Assembly (NCBI GenBank): GCA_963832025.1
Contig: CAWHSF010000003.1
Span: forward strand, 207,665 to 271,664
DNA: 64,000 nucleotides
Direction: 5' to 3'
From: Candidatus Nomurabacteria bacterium
GTDB taxonomy: Bacteria > Patescibacteriota > Minisyncoccia > Phycocordibacterales > UBA9973
Position numbers and translations under genes: made by a program. How positions within the stretch are numbered: the first letter of the stretch is position 1; every line of letters begins with the position of its first letter. Below are positions 3,524 to 61,278 of this stretch, piece after piece. The notes beneath the pieces are model-generated. The model saw only the letters and a list, made by a program, of their open reading frames with translations. It made no database searches and had not been told where the DNA came from.

Positions 3524-3529
3524 CATGAG

Positions 3530-3609
3530 TCCCGTTAGAAGTAACTTCTAATAATAACAATGTAATGATAAAAAACTATAAACAAAATAAAATAACTTCT
3601 AACGGGATG
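3530..3609 (+). repeat. intercistronic hairpin cassette, family G copy 3 (3' arm ends on ATG 3607)
   Basis: Left arm TCCCGTTAGAAGT (3530-3542). Proximal complement ACTTCTAA (3544-3551). Distal perfect complement ACTTCTAACGGGA (3595-3607), followed by TG. Confidence 0.7.
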
Positions 3610-7493: not shown

Positions 7494-7709
7494 TCAAAGC
7501 ACAGGGTCAATATGATTTTTTTGCCAAGGATGGCAACGCAAAATTCGCAAAAAGCCAAGATAACTTCCTTTTAATATTCCGTATTTTTCTACCGCTTGTT
7601 TGGTGTATTCGGAGCAAGAAGGATAAAACACACAACTTGGTTTTATAAAAATAGAAATATTTTTTTGGTAAAAATCAATTAATTTTAGAAAGTATTTTTT
7701 TAATTTCAT
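7494..7709 (-). CDS. yidD: membrane protein insertion efficiency factor YidD
   Basis: CVFYPSCSEYTKQAVEKYG...RILRCHPW motif. The ORF is open to 7769, but an internal Met (MKLKKYF) is the likely start. Confidence 0.75.
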   Translation of the reverse strand: MKLKKYFLKLIDFYQKNISIFIKPSCVFYPSCSEYTKQAVEKYGILKGSYLGFLRILRCHPWQKNHIDPVL

Positions 7710-8001
7710 TTTCAATGATTGAAGCATCGTCTTGGTATTTTTTAAAAATAAATACACCCAAGGTGCCAAGAGGGAATTGCTTCAGATGTTTTTCCAAAGC
7801 AATATATCCGCGTCTTCTCAATAAATTCCTTTTAACCGCAAGCCTAGCAACATTTTTTGGCGCAATAAAAGAAATCCGCAAAGTTGTAGAATTTAGATTT
7901 TTTATGTATTTAAAGGTTAAATTATCGGAATTTAAAAATTTTCCTTCTTTAAAGATTTGATTTACCGCCTTTCTGTCGGCTCTATTTTTTTTCTTTAGCA
8001 T
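7675..8001 (-). CDS. rnpA: ribonuclease P protein component
   Basis: 108-aa basic ORF directly downstream of rpmH; RNase P protein-like RLAVKRNLLRRR. Confidence 0.8.
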   Translation of the reverse strand: MLKKKNRADRKAVNQIFKEGKFLNSDNLTFKYIKNLNSTTLRISFIAPKNVARLAVKRNLLRRRGYIALEKHLKQFPLGTLGVFIFKKYQDDASIIENEIKKILSKIN

Positions 8002-8024
8002 TACTTGTCCCGCTAAGGCGTGGA

Positions 8025-9841: not shown

Positions 9842-10939
9842 ATGAAACTAGAATGTTCAATTGAAAAAATTAAAAACGCGGTTGCTCAAGTGGAAAGAAT
9901 AACCGGGAAAAATTTAACCTTACCAATACTTAGTTCGGTTTTACTTATTGCATCTTTAAAATCTTTAAAGTTAAGGTCTACGAACTTAAGTCTTGGTATT
10001 GAAATAGAAATTCCCGCAAAAATAGATCGTGAAGGGACCCTGGCTATTTCTGGTTCGGTTTTAAATTCAATTTTTTCAAATGTTTCCCAAAATGAAAATG
10101 TAAATTTAGAAGAAAAGGATGGAAATTTACTTATTAAAACAAATAAGACTCAAATAAGACTCAAAAGTCAGCCCCATGAAGATTTTCCGACAATCCCGAC
10201 GGTAAACGGAACCAGTTTTGAAATAGAATCAAAAAAATTAATCGATGGGATAAAATCGGTTTATTACAGCTCTTCTGTTTCAGACATAAAACCGGAAATT
10301 TCAAGTGTTTTTATTTATACAAATAATGACAACCTGGTTTTTGTCTCTACAGACTCTTTCAGATTAGCGGAAAAGAAAATTAAAACTAAAGGAGTTCCCG
10401 AAATTTTGGGCATCCTTATTCCCTTTAAAAACATTACCGAAATATTAAAGATTTTTGGCGAACTTCAAGGTTTAATAAAAGTTTGTTTCAATAAAAACCA
10501 AATTTCTTTTTCCACGGAAAATATTTATTTAACTTCCAGGGTAATTGATGGAATTTTCCCGGACTACCGTCAAATTATTCCCAAAAATTTTACCACGGAA
10601 ATTGTTGTTCTAAAGCAAGACTTGCTAAATGCGCTTAAACTTTCGAATATATTTTCTGACAAATTCAACCAAGTTAATCTCAAGGTTCTTCCAAAAGAAA
10701 AGATTTTTGAGCTTTCTTCAGCAAACAACGATATTGGAGAAAACAAAACTTATTTAGATGCGGTGATAAAAGGAGAAAACATTGAATTAGGCTTCAATTA
10801 TAAATACTTTTGGGATTGTTTCGTTTCTATTACTACCGACAGTGTTTCTATAAGATTATCCGGAAGTGGCAAACCAATAGTTGTTTCTCCTGTTTCTGAC
10901 CCATTATTTACTTATCTCATCATGCCGATGAATAAATAA
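9842..10939 (+). CDS. dnaN: DNA polymerase III beta sliding clamp
   Basis: 365-aa ORF immediately after dnaA; clamp-like length and C-terminus (...YLIMPMN). Confidence 0.9.
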   Translation: MKLECSIEKIKNAVAQVERITGKNLTLPILSSVLLIASLKSLKLRSTNLSLGIEIEIPAKIDREGTLAISGSVLNSIFSNVSQNENVNLEEKDGNLLIKTNKTQIRLKSQPHEDFPTIPTVNGTSFEIESKKLIDGIKSVYYSSSVSDIKPEISSVFIYTNNDNLVFVSTDSFRLAEKKIKTKGVPEILGILIPFKNITEILKIFGELQGLIKVCFNKNQISFSTENIYLTSRVIDGIFPDYRQIIPKNFTTEIVVLKQDLLNALKLSNIFSDKFNQVNLKVLPKEKIFELSSANNDIGENKTYLDAVIKGENIELGFNYKYFWDCFVSITTDSVSIRLSGSGKPIVVSPVSDPLFTYLIMPMNK

Positions 10940-10953
10940 AAACTTAAAATTTA

Positions 10954-11023
10954 TCCCGTACTAAATTTTAATTAAAACAAATGAACACTATTATTAAAAA
11001 TTTAAAATTTTAGTACCGGGATG
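10954..11023 (+). repeat. intercistronic hairpin cassette, family G copy 1 (3' arm ends on ATG 11021)
   Basis: Left arm TCCCGTACTAAATTTTA (10954-10970). Right arm TAAAATTTTAGTACCGGGA (11003-11021), followed by TG. Starts 15 nt after the dnaN stop. Confidence 0.7.
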
Positions 11024-11278
11024 ATTGAAATAAAAGATTTACTTAGTCGTTTTAGTGAAATTCTTCTAGGGGAAGAAGGGAAAAAAGAAGCTGTTAGAGA
11101 CGTAATTTCGTCTGTTATTCAGGTAAAAATAAAATCTGAAGATATAAAAATAAAAAATAATATTATTTATTTAAACATCAAACCTATTTACAAAAACGAA
11201 ATTTTTATTAAACAAGAAAAAATTTTTCTCGCACTAAAAGAAGCTCTCGGTAAAAAAGCACCAGAAAGTCTTAGGTAA
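11021..11278 (+). CDS. small protein, possibly DUF721/DciA-like
   Basis: 85-aa ORF after dnaN. The position and the C-terminal pattern (NNIIYLNIKPIYKNEIFIKQEKIFLALKEALG) resemble DUF721. Weak call. Confidence 0.35.
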   Translation: MIEIKDLLSRFSEILLGEEGKKEAVRDVISSVIQVKIKSEDIKIKNNIIYLNIKPIYKNEIFIKQEKIFLALKEALGKKAPESLR

Positions 11279-36557: not shown

Positions 36558-36660
36558 GCTCAAAATATATTTTATAAAGCAATCTATCTCCGCAAGCTTG
36601 CGGAGCGAACCTGCTCGGCTACCCGCCTGCGCAAGACTTTCTAAAACATATTTTCTGAGC
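36558..36660 (+). repeat. family F intergenic palindromic element, copy 2
   Basis: Outer TIR GCTCAAAATATATTTTATAAAG / CTTTCTAAAACATATTTTCTGAGC. Inner palindrome CTCCGCAAGCTTGCGGAG (36588-36605). The core is identical to copy 1. Confidence 0.75.
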
Positions 36661-45034: not shown

Positions 45035-48000
45035 TTATTCTTGTACTGTTGTTGTGGTAGTTTTCTTTCCGAGAGGTTGATGATCTACAACAGTGGTAGT
45101 TCTTTTGATAAAAGGAGCTGTGGGCGGTGGAAGATATGCTGGATTTATTTTTCTTTGTCCGTAAATATATTTTGCTAACAATATCAATATAAGAATAAGT
45201 ATGATTATGATAAGCCAACCAAATATATTTGTCGGGAAGAAGCCAGCTCCGAAAGCGAATGCTCCAAGAGGGGAGGTCGTTCCGGTTGTTGCACTCCATA
45301 CTTGAGCGGAAACATTCGCATTGACTGATTGAGAATTACCGGAAGGGTCAACATAGTTTAAGGTTGCAGGGAAGTTGAGCAATGTGCCTGCGGTTGCGTC
45401 GCTGTTTACCTGTGTTTTTACTGTTACCACACCGGAAGCTCCTCCTCTAAGTGTTCCCAAGTTGAATACCAAAGTATTTCCGAGAACATTAGGATTGATT
45501 GGGTTCGATGAAAGATAAGTTACTTCTTGTGGCAACACTAACTGCAAACTTAGATTGGTAGCAGATCCTGTTCCGACATTTTGATAATTTATAGTGTAAT
45601 TAATTTCATCTCCTGGGTGTGGTCTGGTGTTGTCAATTGTAGGAACAATCGGTTGGTCTCTATTTACCGAAGAAGTAATAAGAAGAAGTGAACTTGCAGC
45701 TGTCCTGTTTACATATCTGATTACTGTCGTCGGACTCTGTGCCCCAGTTGTGGTAAAGCTTAATATATAACCATTACTACTTTGATAGGAATCTTGCGCA
45801 ATTGCTCGGAAGTAATAAGTTGTTCCAGGGCTTAATCCACTCAATGTGTCTGTGTGTATAACCGATGGCAATGTTCCGACAGCTGTGGTTGTAGTCGTAT
45901 TTCCCAAATTTATAGTTGGGCCCCACTCAAACCAAGCATTTATTGGGCTGGAATCAGAACTGCTAATTAAGGAGTTCAATTGTGCACTGGTGCTTAATAC
46001 TTGTGTTGCTTGCGTGGTGACGACACTTAGATTGCTTGCTATTGGTTGTGGATATATTGGTGTTGGAACGGGATATACCGGAACTATTGGTTGATAGTTT
46101 TGATTTACATAAACAGTGGTTGAACCAGTCGCTTGCTGTCCGGTGCTACTAGTACAAACAATATTGTAAGTAGTTGTATAAGTTAGAGCTCCAGTAGTTA
46201 TACTGCCGGAAGTACTTTGTGTTCCGGAAAGTCCATTGTAACCACCAGTAATACTACAATAACTTGCGTTAGTTGAGTTCCAAGAAATAATACTGGAACC
46301 ATTATAGTTGACACTGGAAGGATTTGCGTAAATGTTGACGGTAGGTTGCAAAATTTGATTTTGATTTACATAAACAGTGGTTGAACCAGTCGCTTGCTGT
46401 CCGGTGCTACTAGTACAAACAATATTGTAAGTAGTTGTATAAGTTAGAGCTCCAGTAGTTATACTGCCGGAAGTACTTTGTGTTCCGGAAAGTCCATTGT
46501 AACCACCAGTAATACTACAATAACTTGCGTTAGTTGAGTTCCAAGAAATAATACTGGAACCATTGTAGTTGACACTGGAAGGATTTGCGTAAATGTTGAC
46601 GGTAGGAATCTGGTTTTGAATTTGATTTACCGACACCGTCGCTGAAGCACTTACTTGTGTTCCATTGGTTCCATAACAAGTAATTGAATAGGTTGTAGTT
46701 CCACTTGGTACTACAACTCCGGAACCACTAGTTGCTGTACTGGAAGTCCAGTAAGCCTGACAAGATGTTGCGTTATTTGAACTCCAAGTAAGTGTAGAGT
46801 TTGCTCCGGATTGGATGGAAGTTGGGTTGGCGTAAAGAGAAACGGTTGGGTTTTGATATTGAATCTGATTTACCGACACCGTCGCTGAAGCACTTACTTG
46901 TGTTCCATTGGTTCCATAACAAGTAATTGAATAGGTTGTAGTTCCACTTGGTACTACAACTCCGGAACCACTAGTTGCTGTACTGGAAGTCCAGTAAGCC
47001 TGACAAGATGTTGCGTTATTTGAACTCCAAGTAAGTGTAGAGTTTGCTCCGGATTGGATGGAAGTTGGGTTGGCGTAAAGAGAAACGGTTGGGTTTTGAT
47101 ATTGAATCTGATTTACCGACACCGTCGCTGAAGCACTTACTTGTGTTCCATTGGTTCCATAACAAGTAATTGAATAGGTTGTAGTTCCACTTGGTACTAC
47201 AACTCCGGAACCACTAGTTGCTGTACTGGAAGTCCAGTAAGCCTGACAAGATGTTGCGTTATTTGAACTCCAAGTAAGTGTAGAGTTTGCTCCGGATTGG
47301 ATGGAAGTTGGGTTGGCGTAAAGAGAAACGGTTGGGTTTTGATATTGAATCTGATTTACCGACACCGTCGCTGAAGCACTTACTTGTGTTCCATTGGTTC
47401 CATAACAAGTAATTGAATAGGTTGTAGTTCCACTTGGTACTACAACTCCGGAACCACTAGTTGCTGTACTGGAAGTCCAGTAAGCCTGACAAGATGTTGC
47501 GTTATTTGAACTCCAAGTAAGTGTAGAGTTTGCTCCGGATTGGATGGAAGTTGGGTTGGCGTAAAGAGAAACGGTTGGGTTTTGAATCTGTTGCGCTGCT
47601 ACTGTTACCGTCGCATATGCGGAAGCTTGTGCTCCGGTACTGCTGGTACAAGTAAGATTGTAAGAAGTTGTATTAGCTAAAGCTCCAGTATTAAAACTAC
47701 CGGAAGTATTTTGATTTCCTCCCCAACCATTTGTACCACCACTTGCGATGCAAGATGTTGCGTTGGTGGAATTCCAAGTTAAGATACTTGTTCCATTGTA
47801 AGCTACGGAAGTTGGATTAGCGGAAAGAGAAACTGTCGGCTGAACCTGACCACTCACTGACACCGTCGCATAGGCGGAAGCTTGTGCTCCGGTACTGCTG
47901 GTACAAGTAAGATTGTAAGAAGTTGTATTAGCTAAAGCTCCAGTATTAAAACTACCGGAAGTATTTTGATTTCCTCCCCAACCATTTGTACCACCACTTG

Positions 48001-48967
48001 CGATGCAAGAAGTTGCGTTAGTAGAATTCCAAATTAACGTACTTGTTCCATTGTAAGCTACGGAAGTTGGATTAGCGGTTAAACTGACAGTTGGGGTTTT
48101 TATCTGTTGAGTTACCGACACCGTCGCTGAAGCACTTACTTGTGTTCCATTGGTTCCATAACAAGTAATTGAATAGGTTGTAGTTCCACTTGGTACTACA
48201 ACTCCGGAACCACTAGTTGCTGTACTGGAAGTCCAGTAAGCCTGACAAGATGTTGCGTTATTTGAACTCCAAGTAAGTGTAGAGTTTGCTCCGGATTGGA
48301 TGGAAGTTGGGTTGGCGTAAAGAGAAACGGTTGGGTTTTGAATCTGTTGCGCTGCTACTGTTACCGTCGCATATGCGGAAGCTTGTGCTCCGGTACTGCT
48401 GGTACAAGTAAGATTGTAAGAAGTTGTATTAGCTAAAGCTCCAGTATTAAAACTACCGGAAGTATTTTGATTTCCTCCCCAACCATTTGTACCACCACTT
48501 GCGATGCAAGATGTTGCGTTGGTGGAATTCCAAGTTAAGATACTTGTTCCATTGTAAGCTACGGAAGTTGGATTAGCTGTAAGGTTAACGGTTGGTGTAA
48601 CTACAGTAGGTTGGCAAGAAGCGGTAGTAAAAGAAACCATACTTCCGGACCATGATCCTTGAGGGGCATTGTTGAATTCTGTTTCATAATAATATGTAGT
48701 GTTTTGAGTGAGACCATTTATTACGGCACTGAAATCCGAATACGCAGTATAAGTTTGAGGAGTCGTGGAATATCCGAGAGATGGAGTAGGTCCCCATTCA
48801 AACCAAGCTGAAGTCGGAGTTCCGTTTGGACTTACGTAGCCATTTAAGGTTGCGCTGTTGCAAGTCTGCACTTGATATTGTGCTGCTGCTTTGTTTACAT
48901 TAATAAAAAGCCCGAAAACGGTAACGAAAACGATAAACATGGATATTGATAACTTTTTCATATTCAT
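45035..48967 (-). CDS. giant cell-surface repeat protein (signal peptide, FN3-like ends, 10 Ig-like tandem repeats, DUF11-like domain, C-terminal TM anchor)
   Basis: 1310 aa. N-terminal MNMKKLSISMFIVFVTVFGLF. Two ...WFEWGPT... modules. Three repeat types (A x3, B x5, C x2). C-terminal WLIIIILILILILLAKY anchor. Confidence 0.8.
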   Translation of the reverse strand: MNMKKLSISMFIVFVTVFGLFINVNKAAAQYQVQTCNSATLNGYVSPNGTPTSAWFEWGPTPSLGYSTTPQTYTAYSDFSAVINGLTQNTTYYYETEFNNAPQGSWSGSMVSFTTASCQPTVVTPTVNLTANPTSVAYNGTSILTWNSTNATSCIASGGTNGWGGNQNTSGSFNTGALANTTSYNLTCTSSTGAQASAYATVTVAAQQIQNPTVSLYANPTSIQSGANSTLTWSSNNATSCQAYWTSSTATSGSGVVVPSGTTTYSITCYGTNGTQVSASATVSVTQQIKTPTVSLTANPTSVAYNGTSTLIWNSTNATSCIASGGTNGWGGNQNTSGSFNTGALANTTSYNLTCTSSTGAQASAYATVSVSGQVQPTVSLSANPTSVAYNGTSILTWNSTNATSCIASGGTNGWGGNQNTSGSFNTGALANTTSYNLTCTSSTGAQASAYATVTVAAQQIQNPTVSLYANPTSIQSGANSTLTWSSNNATSCQAYWTSSTATSGSGVVVPSGTTTYSITCYGTNGTQVSASATVSVNQIQYQNPTVSLYANPTSIQSGANSTLTWSSNNATSCQAYWTSSTATSGSGVVVPSGTTTYSITCYGTNGTQVSASATVSVNQIQYQNPTVSLYANPTSIQSGANSTLTWSSNNATSCQAYWTSSTATSGSGVVVPSGTTTYSITCYGTNGTQVSASATVSVNQIQYQNPTVSLYANPTSIQSGANSTLTWSSNNATSCQAYWTSSTATSGSGVVVPSGTTTYSITCYGTNGTQVSASATVSVNQIQNQIPTVNIYANPSSVNYNGSSIISWNSTNASYCSITGGYNGLSGTQSTSGSITTGALTYTTTYNIVCTSSTGQQATGSTTVYVNQNQILQPTVNIYANPSSVNYNGSSIISWNSTNASYCSITGGYNGLSGTQSTSGSITTGALTYTTTYNIVCTSSTGQQATGSTTVYVNQNYQPIVPVYPVPTPIYPQPIASNLSVVTTQATQVLSTSAQLNSLISSSDSSPINAWFEWGPTINLGNTTTTTAVGTLPSVIHTDTLSGLSPGTTYYFRAIAQDSYQSSNGYILSFTTTGAQSPTTVIRYVNRTAASSLLLITSSVNRDQPIVPTIDNTRPHPGDEINYTINYQNVGTGSATNLSLQLVLPQEVTYLSSNPINPNVLGNTLVFNLGTLRGGASGVVTVKTQVNSDATAGTLLNFPATLNYVDPSGNSQSVNANVSAQVWSATTGTTSPLGAFAFGAGFFPTNIFGWLIIIILILILILLAKYIYGQRKINPAYLPPPTAPFIKRTTTVVDHQPLGKKTTTTTVQE
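46101..46622 (-). repeat. 2 x 261-bp near-identical tandem coding repeat (type C)
   Basis: tgatttacataaacagtggttgaacc... recurs at 46101 and 46362. Confidence 0.85.
46624..47585 (-). repeat. 4 x 243-bp tandem coding repeat (type B), apparently identical at nucleotide level
   Basis: gatttaccgacaccgtcgctgaagc... starts at 46624, 46867, 47110 and 47353. Units 2 and 3 read identical by eye. Confidence 0.9.
47586..48600 (-). repeat. interleaved type A / type B repeat units (A3, A2, B1, A1) with long identical stretches
   Basis: ttgaatctgttgcgctgctactgttaccgtcgcatatgcgg occurs near 47580 and again near 48320. Confidence 0.75.
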
Positions 48968-57259: not shown

Positions 57260-57294
57260 GCCGAAATAATAACAGAAAAAAGCATTTTATGCTA

Positions 57295-57362
57295 CCCGGT
57301 AGTGAAACTTGGCAAAGTTTTTTAAAACGTGCCGAAGCGCATTGCCAAGTTCTACTACCGGG
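57295..57362 (+). repeat. 21-bp-armed hairpin upstream of yqgF, related to family G arms
   Basis: CCCGGTAGTGAAACTTGGCAA ... TTGCCAAGTTCTACTACCGGG. Followed by TGcTAGTAT (57363-57371), 8 nt before ATG 57380. Confidence 0.55.
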
Positions 57363-57379
57363 TGCTAGTATTCTTTTAT

Positions 57380-60739: not shown

Positions 60740-60778
60740 ATGTGCTAATTTTAAACAGTATTTATGAATAAACATTTG

Positions 60779-60851
60779 CGCGCTTAGCTCAGTTGGTAGA
60801 GCAACTCATTTACACTGAGAAGGTCGGGGGTTCGAGTCCCTCAGCGCGCAC
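60779..60851 (+). tRNA. tRNA-Val (anticodon UAC)
   Basis: Acceptor GCGCGCT/AGCGCGC; anticodon loop TTTACAC; T-arm GGGGG-TTCGAGT-CCCTC. Confidence 0.9.
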
Positions 60852-60869
60852 TAGAGCCTTAGAGAAATG

Positions 60870-60941
60870 CCCTCGTAGTTCAATGGATAGAACAGAGCTC
60901 TTCTAAGGCTTCGATGTAGGTTCGATTCCTACCGAGGGCAC
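60870..60941 (+). tRNA. tRNA-Arg (anticodon UCU)
   Basis: Acceptor GCCCTCG/CGAGGGC; anticodon loop CTTCTAA; T-arm GTAGG-TTCGATT-CCTAC. Confidence 0.9.
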
Positions 60942-61259
60942 AAAAATAAGCGGAGCATATTTTTGTGCCCGAGAGCGAGCAAACTGCTTTGCTCGCGGGT
61001 AGGAAGCGAAAAGCTTTTCATTAATAGCGAGAAATTTATTTCGAGCTATTTGAAAAGGTATACTGTTCCCGTAGGGAAAGATATCCTACCGAGGGCACAA
61101 AAATAAGCGGAGCATATTTTTGTGCCCGAGAGCGAGCAAACTGCTTTGCTCGCGGGTAGGAAGCGAAAAGCTTTTCATTAATAGCGAGAAATTTATTTCG
61201 AGCTATTTGAAAAGGTATACTGTTCCCGTAGGGAAAGATATCCTACCGAGGGCACAAAT
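60929..61259 (+). repeat. 2 x 157-bp direct tandem repeat, each unit starting with the last 13 nt of tRNA-Arg(UCU)
   Basis: CCTACCGAGGGCACAAA occurs at 60929, 61086 and 61243. The intervening 157-bp units read identical. Confidence 0.9.
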
Positions 61260-61278
61260 TTTAAATAAATTACGGTTG

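What the first reader, a model, noticed from the sequence alone, without database searches (positions are those of the whole stretch)
10954..11023. Family G copy between dnaN and the DUF721-like gene
The left arm TCCCGTACTAAATTTTA starts 15 nt after the dnaN stop. The right arm TAAAATTTTAGTACCGGGA ends on ATG 11021. The arm sequence is nearly identical to the uvrA/uvrC copy. This copy lacks the proximal short complement.
Basis: seen in the sequence. Interest (0 to 1): 0.6.

Follow-up and report, generated by a model that had tools for sequence, protein, structure and literature searches.

The report
Mobile hairpin repeat abutting start codon
The inverted repeat between dnaN and the next gene is one copy of a small, non-coding, apparently mobile palindromic element of Nomurabacteria (candidate-phyla-radiation bacteria) that almost always sits with its last base forming the A of a gene's ATG, an unusual placement in an organism that mostly uses leaderless mRNAs.

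Summary
A 68-nt hairpin-forming inverted repeat lies at 10954-11021. It starts 15 nt after the dnaN stop, and its last base is the A of ATG 11021. Its arms are almost identical to those of the copy at 28767-28834 (uvrA to uvrC).

It is an insertion. In the closest relative (L003) and in most of 80 Nomurabacteria genomes, the same conserved 85-aa gene follows dnaN after 0-10 nt. The element occupies this junction in only three separate lineages.

A metagenome scan gave 126 copies. In 124 of them the element is followed by TG, which makes the ATG of a real gene. These genes include ribosomal proteins, dnaB, serS, clpB and ftsW. All copies have the same orientation. Most carry a constant ACYTG (ATTTA in this subfamily) on the 5' side.

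Sister families share the TCCCG...CGGGA ends but have different, mutually compensating arms. They carry 4-nt target duplications (ATGAA|element|TGAA).

The best reading is a MITE/REPIN-like mobile palindrome that lives at start codons. As RNA it folds so that the AUG lies in the foot of the stem.

How downstream genes are still translated, and what mobilises the element, remain unknown. No transposase partner, Rfam family or paper was found.

The parts
9842..10939 (+). dnaN (DNA polymerase III beta clamp), the upstream gene; stop TAA at 10937-10939
   Evidence: All three Pfam DNA_pol3_beta domains match. Relatives share 72-89% identity.
10940..10948 (+). Residual spacer AAACTTAAA between the dnaN stop and the element
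   Evidence: In family-G copies that follow an ORF, the stop codon usually lies 6-12 nt before TCCCG; here the distance is 14 nt.
10949..10953 (+). Element-borne 5' pentamer ATTTA, the subfamily equivalent of ACYTG. Its TA pairs with the UG of the AUG. Together with 10944-10948 it forms the upstream complement to 10962-10971.
   Evidence: ATTTA is the left flank of 5 metagenome copies with the same type of loop. Pairing is shown; the alternative pairing (I8).
10954..10971 (+). Left arm TCCCGTACTAAATTTTAA
10972..11001 (+). A/T-rich loop (30 nt)
11002..11021 (+). Right arm TTAAAATTTTAGTACCGGGA, with two single-base bulges relative to the left arm. Its last base is the A of the start codon.
11021..11278 (+). 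Conserved 85-aa gene (MIEIKDLL...), weakly DciA/DUF721-like. Its AUG lies inside the foot of the stem.
28762..28836 (+). Sister family-G copy between uvrA (stop 28758-28760) and uvrC: ACTTG 28762-28766, hairpin 28767-28834, proximal complement TACGGGA 28787-28793, ATG 28834-28836
3524..3609 (+). Related element with the same ends but other arms: CATGAG | TCCCGTTAGAAGT...ACTTCTAACGGGA | TG. The ATG at 3607 opens a 381-aa gene. The duplicated ATGA(G/A) looks like a target-site duplication.
   Evidence: (I12)
31623..31694 (-). Related element between ruvA (stop 31700-31702) and fpg/mutM: ACTTG | TCCCGTTAGAAAAT...ATTTTCTAATGGGA | TG. The ATG at 31625-31623 is the canonical Fpg start (MPELPEVE).

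Best explanation
The repeat is one copy of a dispersed, non-coding, hairpin-forming mobile element. It resembles a MITE or REPIN and belongs to a Nomurabacteria-wide superfamily with invariant ends, 5'-TCCCG...CGGGA-3'. It was inserted into what is, in the nearest relatives, a 0-10-nt dnaN-to-dciA-like spacer. As in nearly all other copies, its 3'-terminal A serves as the A of the downstream ATG. These steps are shown: it is an insertion, it is multi-copy, it abuts the start codon, it has a fixed orientation, and sister families carry 4-nt target duplications. The following steps are inferred. The element is transcribed within the dnaN mRNA and folds into a stem of about 18-21 bp whose foot contains the whole AUG. 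In an organism with no Shine-Dalgarno sequences, internal genes are normally translated by termination-reinitiation across a few nucleotides. A self-folding insert is tolerated there because it keeps the upstream stop codon (or, in other copies, the transcript's 5' end) physically next to the AUG. Translation of the downstream gene then depends on opening the stem foot, either by the ribosome terminating on dnaN or by breathing of the stem. The stem may also protect the 3' end of the dnaN message. Copies survive only where they recreate an intact ATG. The enzyme that moves the element is unknown.
For: Insertion. In most of the 50 genomes where the gene was located, the 85-aa gene follows dnaN by 0-10 nt; in sister genome L003 the spacer is 1 nt. 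Family G occupies this junction only in the window, in L014 plus a decayed copy in L013, and in L071. These are three separate branches of the DnaN tree.

Dispersal. Family G lies before other genes in L008, L022, L045, L054 and L080. Metagenomes hold 126 further copies before roughly 90 different genes.

Start-codon rule. 124 of 126 copies are followed by TG and a real ORF, where about 7 would be expected by chance. All have one orientation.

Element borders. The 5' pentamer is ACTTG or ACCTG in 102 of 126 copies and ATTTA in this subfamily. In 47 of about 120 copies a -10 box lies 4-10 nt (mode 6) upstream of that pentamer, which is exactly the native distance from the -10 box to the ATG. 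In 54 of 69 copies that follow an ORF, the stop codon lies 6-12 nt before TCCCG.

Sister families. Of 41 elements, 27 have an exact 4-nt flanking duplication and 5 a 3-of-4 match (for example ATGAA|...|TGAA, and also TTAG, TTAA and TTGA at sites that are not start codons).

Arms. The arms differ between subfamilies but stay complementary: two or more Watson-Crick pair types occur at 7 of 13 stem positions.

Turnover. Different subfamilies occupy the same dnaA, dnaN, ruvC and jag start codons in different species.

Distribution. The elements are patchy, present in about 24 of the 80 dnaN loci of about 20 kb.

Structure. The MFE is -18.7 kcal/mol with z = -4.3. The consensus structure pairs the A and U of the AUG.

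Organism. 0 of 45 genes have an SD-like motif, and 22 of 45 have a -10 box 4-10 nt before the ATG.

Assembly. Short-read unitigs from the same sample stop exactly at 10939 and restart exactly at 11021.
Against: No autonomous element or transposase with matching ends was found in 2.2 Mb of held sequence. Family G itself shows no target-site duplication, so it fails one classical MITE criterion. Copies at orthologous start codons persist in species whose four-fold synonymous sites are saturated (identity 0.2-0.55), yet their loops remain 56-91% identical. This fits purifying selection on a functional leader at least as well as recurrent insertion. The strict abutment to ATG before essential genes implies that an unknown mechanism lets ribosomes use an AUG buried in a stem of about -18 kcal/mol. 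The tolerance argument is inference only. In this copy the stop codon is 14 nt from the stem, too far for a terminating ribosome to melt its foot directly.
Confidence: 0.68

Rival explanations
1. It is a dedicated cis-acting RNA leader that the host maintains. The hairpin is a functional translation or stability signal for an organism with leaderless mRNAs. It could act as a 5'-terminal or intercistronic stabiliser, and as a gate that couples the downstream AUG to upstream translation. Its spread would be secondary.
For: The element abuts the ATG in 124 of 126 copies, in one orientation. It precedes essential, highly expressed genes. It persists at orthologous start codons across species with saturated synonymous sites. 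The two bases 5' of TCCCG (TG or TA) pair with the UG of the AUG through G-U or A-U pairs, so the pairing exists only in the sense RNA. In sister families G-T combinations outnumber A-C by 12 to 5 in the gene-sense orientation. In promoter-proximal copies only 2-5 unpaired nucleotides would precede the stem. From textbook knowledge, that is the geometry of 5' stabilisers.
Against: The same genes lack the element in most relatives, including the sister genome. Decayed copies exist (L013). Loops are unrelated between subfamilies. Sister families carry target duplications, and some copies lie away from start codons or inside a coding sequence (L071:2125). No Rfam family matches.
Confidence: 0.15
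2. It is a processing signal. An endonuclease cuts at the 3' foot of the stem (GGG|AUG) and releases a leaderless mRNA with a 5'-terminal AUG from polycistronic or hairpin-led transcripts.
For: This is the only simple model that demands zero spacing between the stem end and the AUG, as seen in 124 of 126 copies. The organism relies on leaderless initiation. From general knowledge, enzymes that cut at the 3' base of a hairpin do exist (Cas6/Csy4-type).
Against: There is no direct evidence and no candidate nuclease. The tools cannot test it. Patchy occurrence argues against a host-wide system.
Confidence: 0.1
3. It is an intrinsic terminator of dnaN, or an element-borne promoter for the downstream gene.
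For: The hairpin follows a stop codon. A TAAAAT hexamer lies 12 nt before the ATG in family G.
Against: There is no U-tract: the stem is followed by UGAUUG. No terminator-like or promoter-like site was called in 10800-11150. Sister subfamilies have no consistent -10-like hexamer in the right arm. Many copies lie downstream of an intact native promoter rather than after a gene.
Confidence: 0.04
4. It is an operator for a DNA-repair or replication regulator (an SOS-box-like inverted repeat), since the window copies precede dciA-like, uvrC and fpg.
For: Three of the four window copies precede DNA-metabolism genes.
Against: Across metagenomes the same element precedes ribosomal-protein, tRNA-synthetase, cell-division and chaperone genes. 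The arms are 30 nt or more apart. Arm sequences differ between subfamilies while keeping complementarity, which points to a hairpin rather than a protein-binding motif.
Confidence: 0.02

Closest known systems
Bacterial MITEs (for example the Correia/NEMIS elements of Neisseria)
   Same: Small and non-coding, with terminal inverted repeats. Many dispersed copies. Presence/absence differences between related genomes. Co-transcribed with neighbouring genes as hairpins. The sister families carry short target-site duplications.
   Different: The ends and target differ (a 4-nt T-K-D-R duplication, or none, versus TA). No parent IS is known. Arm sequences covary freely between subfamilies. Above all, the element is positioned strictly at the first base of start codons in a single orientation, which is not described for Correia or other MITEs (my knowledge; no paper found).
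REP / REPIN elements mobilised by RAYT (Y1 HUH) transposases
   Same: Hairpin-forming palindromes of about 70-110 nt that evolve by compensatory changes. No classical TSD (as in family G). Alternative small and large hairpins.
   Different: REPINs lie mostly downstream of genes and carry a conserved GTAG-type tetranucleotide. Here the elements lie at the 5' ends of genes, no GTAG is present, and no RAYT gene was looked for or found.
MIRUs (mycobacterial interspersed repetitive units)
   Same: Short repeats that sit between the stop and start codons of adjacent operon genes, in a way compatible with continued translational coupling (my knowledge: Supply et al. 1997).
   Different: MIRUs are direct tandem repeats with small ORFs that overlap the flanking stop and start codons. 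They are not palindromes. The short ORFs that can be read through the present elements are not conserved.
Start-codon-sequestering regulatory hairpins (RNA thermometers; translational-coupling hairpins such as those in RNA phage MS2)
   Same: The AUG is buried in the foot of an A/U-rich stem with bulges and wobble pairs. Opening the stem would be needed for initiation.
   Different: Those are single-locus, vertically conserved regulators, usually involving an SD sequence. This is a multi-copy, patchily distributed repeat in an organism without SD sequences.
Integron attC sites
   Same: Imperfect palindromes of 57-141 nt, recognised as folded single strands, with extrahelical bases and variable loops.
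   Different: The RYYYAAC/GTTRRRY core sites are absent. attC sites lie 3' of cassettes. There is no integrase or cassette array here.

Membership tests
MITE | Small (<300 bp), no coding capacity | tested here: met
   Family-G hairpins are 66-70 nt (two longer copies of 74 and 88 nt); sister elements 51-139 nt. Short ORFs read from the 5' flank are not conserved.
MITE | Terminal inverted repeats | tested here: met
   The TCCCG.../...CGGGA ends are invariant, and 13-18 bp of the arms are complementary.
MITE | Flanking target-site duplication | tested here: not met
   Family G has a constant 5' pentamer (ACYTG or ATTTA) and a variable 3' flank TGNN, with no duplication. The feature is met only in sister families: 27 of 41 exact 4-nt duplications.
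MITE | Multi-copy and dispersed, with occupied and empty orthologous sites | tested here: met
MITE | A related autonomous IS with the same ends that encodes a transposase | tested here: inconclusive
   No pair of matching ends 170-6000 bp apart encloses an ORF in 2.2 Mb of held loci. Whole genomes were not searched.
REP/REPIN-RAYT | Conserved GTAG-type tetranucleotide next to the palindrome, and extragenic position mostly 3' of genes | tested here: not met
   No GTAG is present. 124 of 126 copies lie immediately 5' of a start codon.
REP/REPIN-RAYT | A cognate RAYT (Y1 transposase) gene in the genome, flanked by the repeats | not tested
   Only 64 kb of the source genome and loci of about 20 kb from relatives were available. 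No protein search for Y1 transposases was made.
Correia/NEMIS | 26-bp Correia TIRs, TA duplication, central IHF site | tested here: not met
   The ends are TCCCG/CGGGA and the flanks are not TA.
Intrinsic terminator | G+C-rich stem followed by a U-tract | tested here: not met
   No terminator-like site was found in 10800-11150. The stem is followed by TGATTG.
Integron attC | R''/R' core sites RYYYAAC...GTTRRRY in that order | tested here: not met
   By inspection of the consensus, family G has no such boxes. The TTAG family has GTTAGAA...TTCTAAC in the opposite order.
Any Rfam RNA family | Match to a curated covariance model | tested here: not met
   Only tRNAs reach the gathering score in the window. 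Local hits at E <= 10 are noise from eukaryotic families.
DciA / DUF721 (downstream gene) | Match to Pfam PF05258 | tested here: inconclusive
   The window protein has no hit. 3 of 25 orthologues hit DciA, best E 1.1e-5. No PDB relative was found.

The most novel reading that the evidence does not exclude
The TCCCG...CGGGA elements are a previously undescribed class of mobile 'leader cassette' specialised for bacteria that use leaderless mRNAs. They integrate at, or survive only at, the first base of start codons. The host expresses the disrupted genes through an unknown mechanism. One possibility is endonucleolytic trimming at the 3' foot of the stem, which would regenerate a 5'-terminal AUG. 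Another is ribosome transfer ('shunting') across the closed foot of the hairpin, from the 5' end or the upstream stop codon to the AUG.
Probability: 0.2. Interest if true: 0.85.

Novelty: new variant of a known kind. Interest (0 to 1): 0.62.

Why it matters
Candidate-phyla-radiation bacteria cannot be grown alone, and how they start translation is largely unexplored. This window shows no Shine-Dalgarno sequences and shows promoters placed for leaderless mRNAs.

A repeat family that places a stable hairpin exactly on the start codon of more than 100 genes, including essential ones, is a natural experiment. Two outcomes are possible. These ribosomes may initiate on an AUG buried in a stem foot, or a processing or shunting step may exist. 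Both can be tested with 5'-end mapping and cell-free translation.

The elements also matter in practice. They break short-read assemblies at gene boundaries and can mislead start-codon calling. An element that regenerates the ATG it interrupts would be an unusual case of a mobile element minimising its own cost.

Tried and rejected
- Rfam: at the gathering threshold and at E <= 10 on the locus, nothing relevant was found.
- Promoter/terminator scan of 10800-11150: no sites.
- Element-borne promoter: family G has TAAAAT 12 nt before the ATG, but sister subfamilies show no consistent -10 hexamer, so this was dropped as a general explanation.
- Conserved leader peptide: reading from the YTG or ATG at the 5' flank gives ORFs of 0-40 codons with variable stops. 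About a third of family-G copies read LSRTKFLITG(H/Y)(K/N)DKDY*, but the frame is broken in many others. Not supported.
- SOS-box or operator idea: rejected because of the unrelated genes that carry the element.
- Autonomous transposon: searching for matching ends 170-6000 bp apart found only pairs of separate small elements.
- Target-site duplication for family G: none. L071's apparent ATGATT duplication and L014's AT are inconsistent with each other.
- Literature: searches for MITEs, inverted repeats or leaderless mRNAs in CPR, Patescibacteria or Nomurabacteria found nothing relevant.
- Permissive scan for any hairpin ending on an ATG in the window: too noisy to use.
- Exact-protein look-ups for uvrC and the gene at 3607: not on record.
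- Covariation within family G: cannot be judged, because the arms were fixed by the search pattern.

Full report
**1. Observation**

- dnaN (9842-10939; all three Pfam beta-clamp domains) ends with TAA at 10937-10939.
- The left arm TCCCGTACTAAATTTTAA occupies 10954-10971.
- A 30-nt A/T-rich loop follows.
- The right arm TTAAAATTTTAGTACCGGGA occupies 11002-11021.
- The last A of the right arm is the A of ATG 11021, which opens an 85-aa ORF.

As RNA the region folds at -18.7 kcal/mol (z = -4.28; 0 of 200 shuffles fold as well). The predicted stem continues three pairs beyond the arms (10951-10953 with 11022-11024), so the complete AUG is paired.

The copy between uvrA and uvrC (28767-28834) has the same 16-nt left arm, and its right arm differs at one base.

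The 'proximal short complement' of that copy (TACGGGA, 28787-28793) is indeed missing here. Instead, a perfect 10-nt complement to the A/T half of the left arm lies directly upstream (10944-10953 versus 10962-10971).

**2. Organism and setting**

DnaN relatives (72-89% identity) are all Candidatus Nomurabacteria / Paceibacterota MAGs.

In the window, 0 of 45 genes have an SD-like tetramer at -16 to -5 (background 7%). By contrast, 22 of 45 have a TANNNT box 4-10 nt (mode 6) before the start codon (background 14%). This is the signature of leaderless mRNAs.

Genes inside operons overlap or follow the previous stop codon by a few nucleotides. They are therefore presumably translated by termination-reinitiation. 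This last point is an inference.

The 85-aa gene is strongly conserved next to dnaN. The window protein has no Pfam or NCBIfam hit. However, 3 of 25 orthologues hit Pfam DciA (formerly DUF721) with best E 1.1e-5. 'DUF721-like' is therefore plausible but weak.

**3. More copies in the window**

Two further elements have the same architecture but different arms:
- 3530-3607 (+): TCCCGTTAGAAGT...ACTTCTAACGGGA|TG
- 31625-31689 (-): between ruvA and fpg, TCCCGTTAGAAAAT...ATTTTCTAATGGGA|TG. This ends on the canonical Fpg start MPELPEVE.

All four copies share one pattern: a stop codon, then 6-15 nt, then TCCCG, arm, A/T-rich loop, complementary arm, GGGA, and then TG.

**4. The junction in relatives**

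In most of the 50 genomes where the 85-aa gene was located next to dnaN, the spacer is 0-10 nt or the genes overlap. Examples are L003 taaGATGATTGAA and L038 taaATGATT.

Family G fills this junction only in the window, in L014, in L071 (with a longer loop) and, as a decayed remnant, in L013.

On a DnaN tree the window's sister L003 has a 1-nt spacer, L013 and L014 are sisters, and L071 lies in a distant clade. The element has therefore been gained at least three times, or lost precisely many times.

Other relatives carry unrelated palindromes at the same junction (L007/L052; L008/L009/L080; L022/L048/L065; L055).

Short-read unitigs from sample ERR11523672, 100% identical to the window, end exactly at 10939 and restart exactly at 11021. 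This would be expected if an empty-site allele coexists in the sample. A repeat or hairpin artefact cannot be excluded.

**5. Census of family G**

In the 80 genomes, family G also precedes rnpA (L008, L045), a jag-like gene (L080) and other genes (L022, L054).

A metagenome scan used only the inner parts of the arms (CCCGTACTAAATTT N30-60 AAATTTTAGTAC).

- **Start codon.** 124 of 126 copies are followed by TG, so the terminal A creates an ATG that opens a real ORF. About 7 would be expected by chance. The genes include rpsI, rplM, rpsL, rpsP, rpsN, rplQ, ftsW, serS, clpB, obg, lepA, nusG, dnaB, clpP, metK and hpf. The N-termini look native.
- **Orientation.** All copies have the same orientation relative to the gene.
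- **Length.** 66-70 nt, most often 68.
- **5' pentamer.** ACTTG (53 copies), ACCTG (49) or, in the subfamily to which the window copy belongs, ATTTA (5). It is therefore part of the element, not of the target.
- **Promoter-proximal copies.** In 47 of about 120 unique copies a -10-like box lies 4-10 nt upstream of the pentamer, with a sharp mode at 6. That is the native distance from the -10 box to the ATG. The predicted transcript would start with A-CYUG followed by the hairpin.
- **Operon-internal copies.** In 54 of the 69 copies that follow an ORF, the stop codon ends 6-12 nt before TCCCG.

Both patterns mean that the element sits exactly where the A|TG of the native start was.

**6. Persistence**

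About 20 groups of copies lie before orthologous genes of different species, with N-terminal protein identity of 59-89%. Four-fold synonymous sites in these pairs are saturated (identity 0.20-0.55), yet the loops are 56-91% identical.

This means one of three things: purifying selection, homogenisation, or repeated insertion of the same family at the same start codons. The data do not separate these.

**7. Sister families**

Forty-one further elements share the TCCCG/CGGGA ends but have other arms (TTAGAAG, TTAGAAA, TACGAAG, AACGAAA, TAGTAGA and others).
- 32 end on the ATG of an ORF of at least 50 codons.
- 27 have an exact 4-nt flanking duplication, and 5 more match at 3 of 4 positions. Typical forms are ATGAA|TCCCG...CGGGA|TGAA or ATGGA|...|TGGA.
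- Duplications of TTAG, TTAA, TTTA and TTGA occur at the few sites that are not start codons.

In promoter-proximal cases a consensus TATAAT lies 6-9 nt before the left ATG copy. Comparing occupied and empty sites makes the insertion explicit. For dnaA, the window has TATAAT-N8-ATGAATACG, while L028 has TATAAT-N8-ATGAA[139-nt element]TGAACAC.

The same start codons (dnaA, dnaN, ruvC, jag) are occupied by different subfamilies in different species. L051 differs from its near relatives L052 and L069 at dnaA, which implies turnover.

One ACTTG-type element lies reversed and in frame inside a coding sequence, 8 nt after the ATG (L071:2125).

Across subfamilies, two or more Watson-Crick pair types occur at 7 of 13 stem positions. 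G-T combinations outnumber A-C by 12 to 5 in the gene-sense orientation. The base 5' of TCCCG can pair with the U of the AUG in 38 of 40 elements. In family G this pair is G-U in 16 and A-U in 3 of the 19 aligned sequences.

The requirement for complementarity, rather than for a fixed arm sequence, points to a folded single strand (RNA or ssDNA) as the relevant form.

**8. What it is not**

- It matches no Rfam family.
- It is not a terminator or a promoter by consensus.
- It has no consistent internal -10 box across subfamilies.
- It encodes no conserved leader peptide.
- It is not a DNA-repair operator, because the gene list is unrelated.
- No autonomous partner was found in 2.2 Mb.
- No relevant paper was found in the searchable library.

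**9. Most likely mechanism**

Shown:
- It is a multi-copy, patchily distributed, hairpin-forming insertion.
- Its last base regenerates the start codon.
- Sister families make 4-nt target duplications.
- Decayed, non-start and in-ORF copies exist.

These features are those of a non-autonomous mobile palindrome of the MITE/REPIN kind.

Inferred:
- The element is co-transcribed.
- Its stem holds the AUG.
- It is tolerated at this one position because a self-closing insert leaves the upstream stop codon (operon-internal copies) or the 5' end of the transcript (promoter-proximal copies) next to the AUG.
- Expression of the downstream gene then depends on opening the foot of the stem.
- The stem may also stabilise the upstream message.

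For this particular copy the stop codon lies 14 nt from the stem, further than in most copies. Coupling to dnaN translation should therefore be weaker than in relatives with a 1-nt spacer.

The zero-spacing rule is not fully explained by tolerance alone. A processing step at GGG|AUG, or ribosome shunting across the stem foot, remains possible (the rival explanations and the novel case).

**10. Comparison and novelty**

The element works most like a bacterial MITE (Correia-like) or a REPIN. Family G fails the target-duplication criterion, and no mobilising gene is known, so membership in either family is not established.

Its position between stop and start codons recalls MIRUs, and its burial of the AUG recalls regulatory hairpins.

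The new feature is the near-absolute, oriented abutment to start codons in a lineage with leaderless mRNAs and no SD sequences. I therefore rate it a new variant of a known kind, with a moderate chance that a new expression or targeting mechanism lies behind it.

Noticed in passing
window 26230-26320 and 29800-29860: uvrA is split by a 1-nt frameshift near 26268 (CTT AAA TCA: frame A 26060-26302, frame B 26256-28760). uvrC is split at 29826/29855. An Illumina-derived contig from the same population (L203 = window 32703-29631) differs from the window by one gap and one mismatch and carries a longer uvrC C-terminal ORF. At least the uvrC frameshift is therefore probably an assembly error in the window.
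   Followed up: partly
window 26509-26600, 29195-29286, 29614-29701: Long palindromic inserts (arms 22-25 nt, G+C-rich cores) lie inside the uvrA and uvrC reading frames without breaking them. UvrA residues 87-127 are an insert relative to solved UvrA structures. 26520-26589 and 29206-29275 share a 70-nt core (79% identity). They look like in-frame palindromic elements of the Rickettsia RPE type.
   Followed up: partly
window 30612-30729, 36571-36654, about 32680-32720: Another repeat family (84 nt, 85% identical) lies just after stop codons. It contains a GC hairpin (CTGGCAAAGCTTTGCCAG) and an ACCTGC motif. A partial inverted copy abuts ATG 32721.
   Followed up: no
window 8005-8024 (- strand, upstream of rnpA 7675-8001): A mini-hairpin TCCACGCCTTAGCGGGA followed by CAAGTA-ATG is conserved at the rpmH-rnpA junction of several relatives. 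CGGGACAAGT is the reverse complement of the ACTTGTCCCG end of the elements. In L008 and L045 a full family-G copy replaces it.
   Followed up: partly
window 10939|10940 and 11020|11021; loci L001, L202: Logan unitigs of run ERR11523672, 100% identical to the window, end exactly at the dnaN stop and restart exactly at the ATG, omitting the whole 81-nt spacer. This hints at an empty-site allele in the same sample, or at an assembly break caused by the repeat or hairpin.
   Followed up: partly
window, all gene starts: No Shine-Dalgarno-like motif precedes any of 45 genes. Half have a TATAAT-like box whose end lies 6-9 nt before the ATG, often with a TG extension. The organism appears to use leaderless mRNAs as its default.
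   Followed up: yes
window 60778-61260: Two tRNA genes are followed by two exact tandem copies of a 157-nt unit (60927-61083 and 61084-61240), whose first 18 nt recur at 61241-61258. Each unit starts with the 3' end of the tRNA (TCCTACCGAGGGCACAAA) and contains a small hairpin.
   Followed up: no
window 45035-48967 (-): A 1310-aa ORF is built largely of 243-nt and 261-nt tandem repeats (up to 100% identical copies). It is probably a repetitive surface protein.
   Followed up: no
window 57294-57363: A 22-nt-arm palindrome (ACCCGGTAGTGAAACTTGGCAA...TTGCCAAGTTCTACTACCGGGT) lies between divergent genes. It is a different family from the one studied.
   Followed up: no
L132 (1891-2404), L089 (1265-2201), L201: In some metagenomic genomes adjacent genes (rplM and rpsI; rplQ and a neighbouring gene) each carry their own family-G copy. 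Three copies occur within one short locus, so the element load differs greatly between genomes.
   Followed up: no
L071:2125-2204: An ACTTG-type element lies reversed inside a coding sequence, 8 nt after the ATG. With its CAAG end it is 84 nt long and is read through in frame, adding about 28 residues to the N-terminus of a membrane protein.
   Followed up: partly
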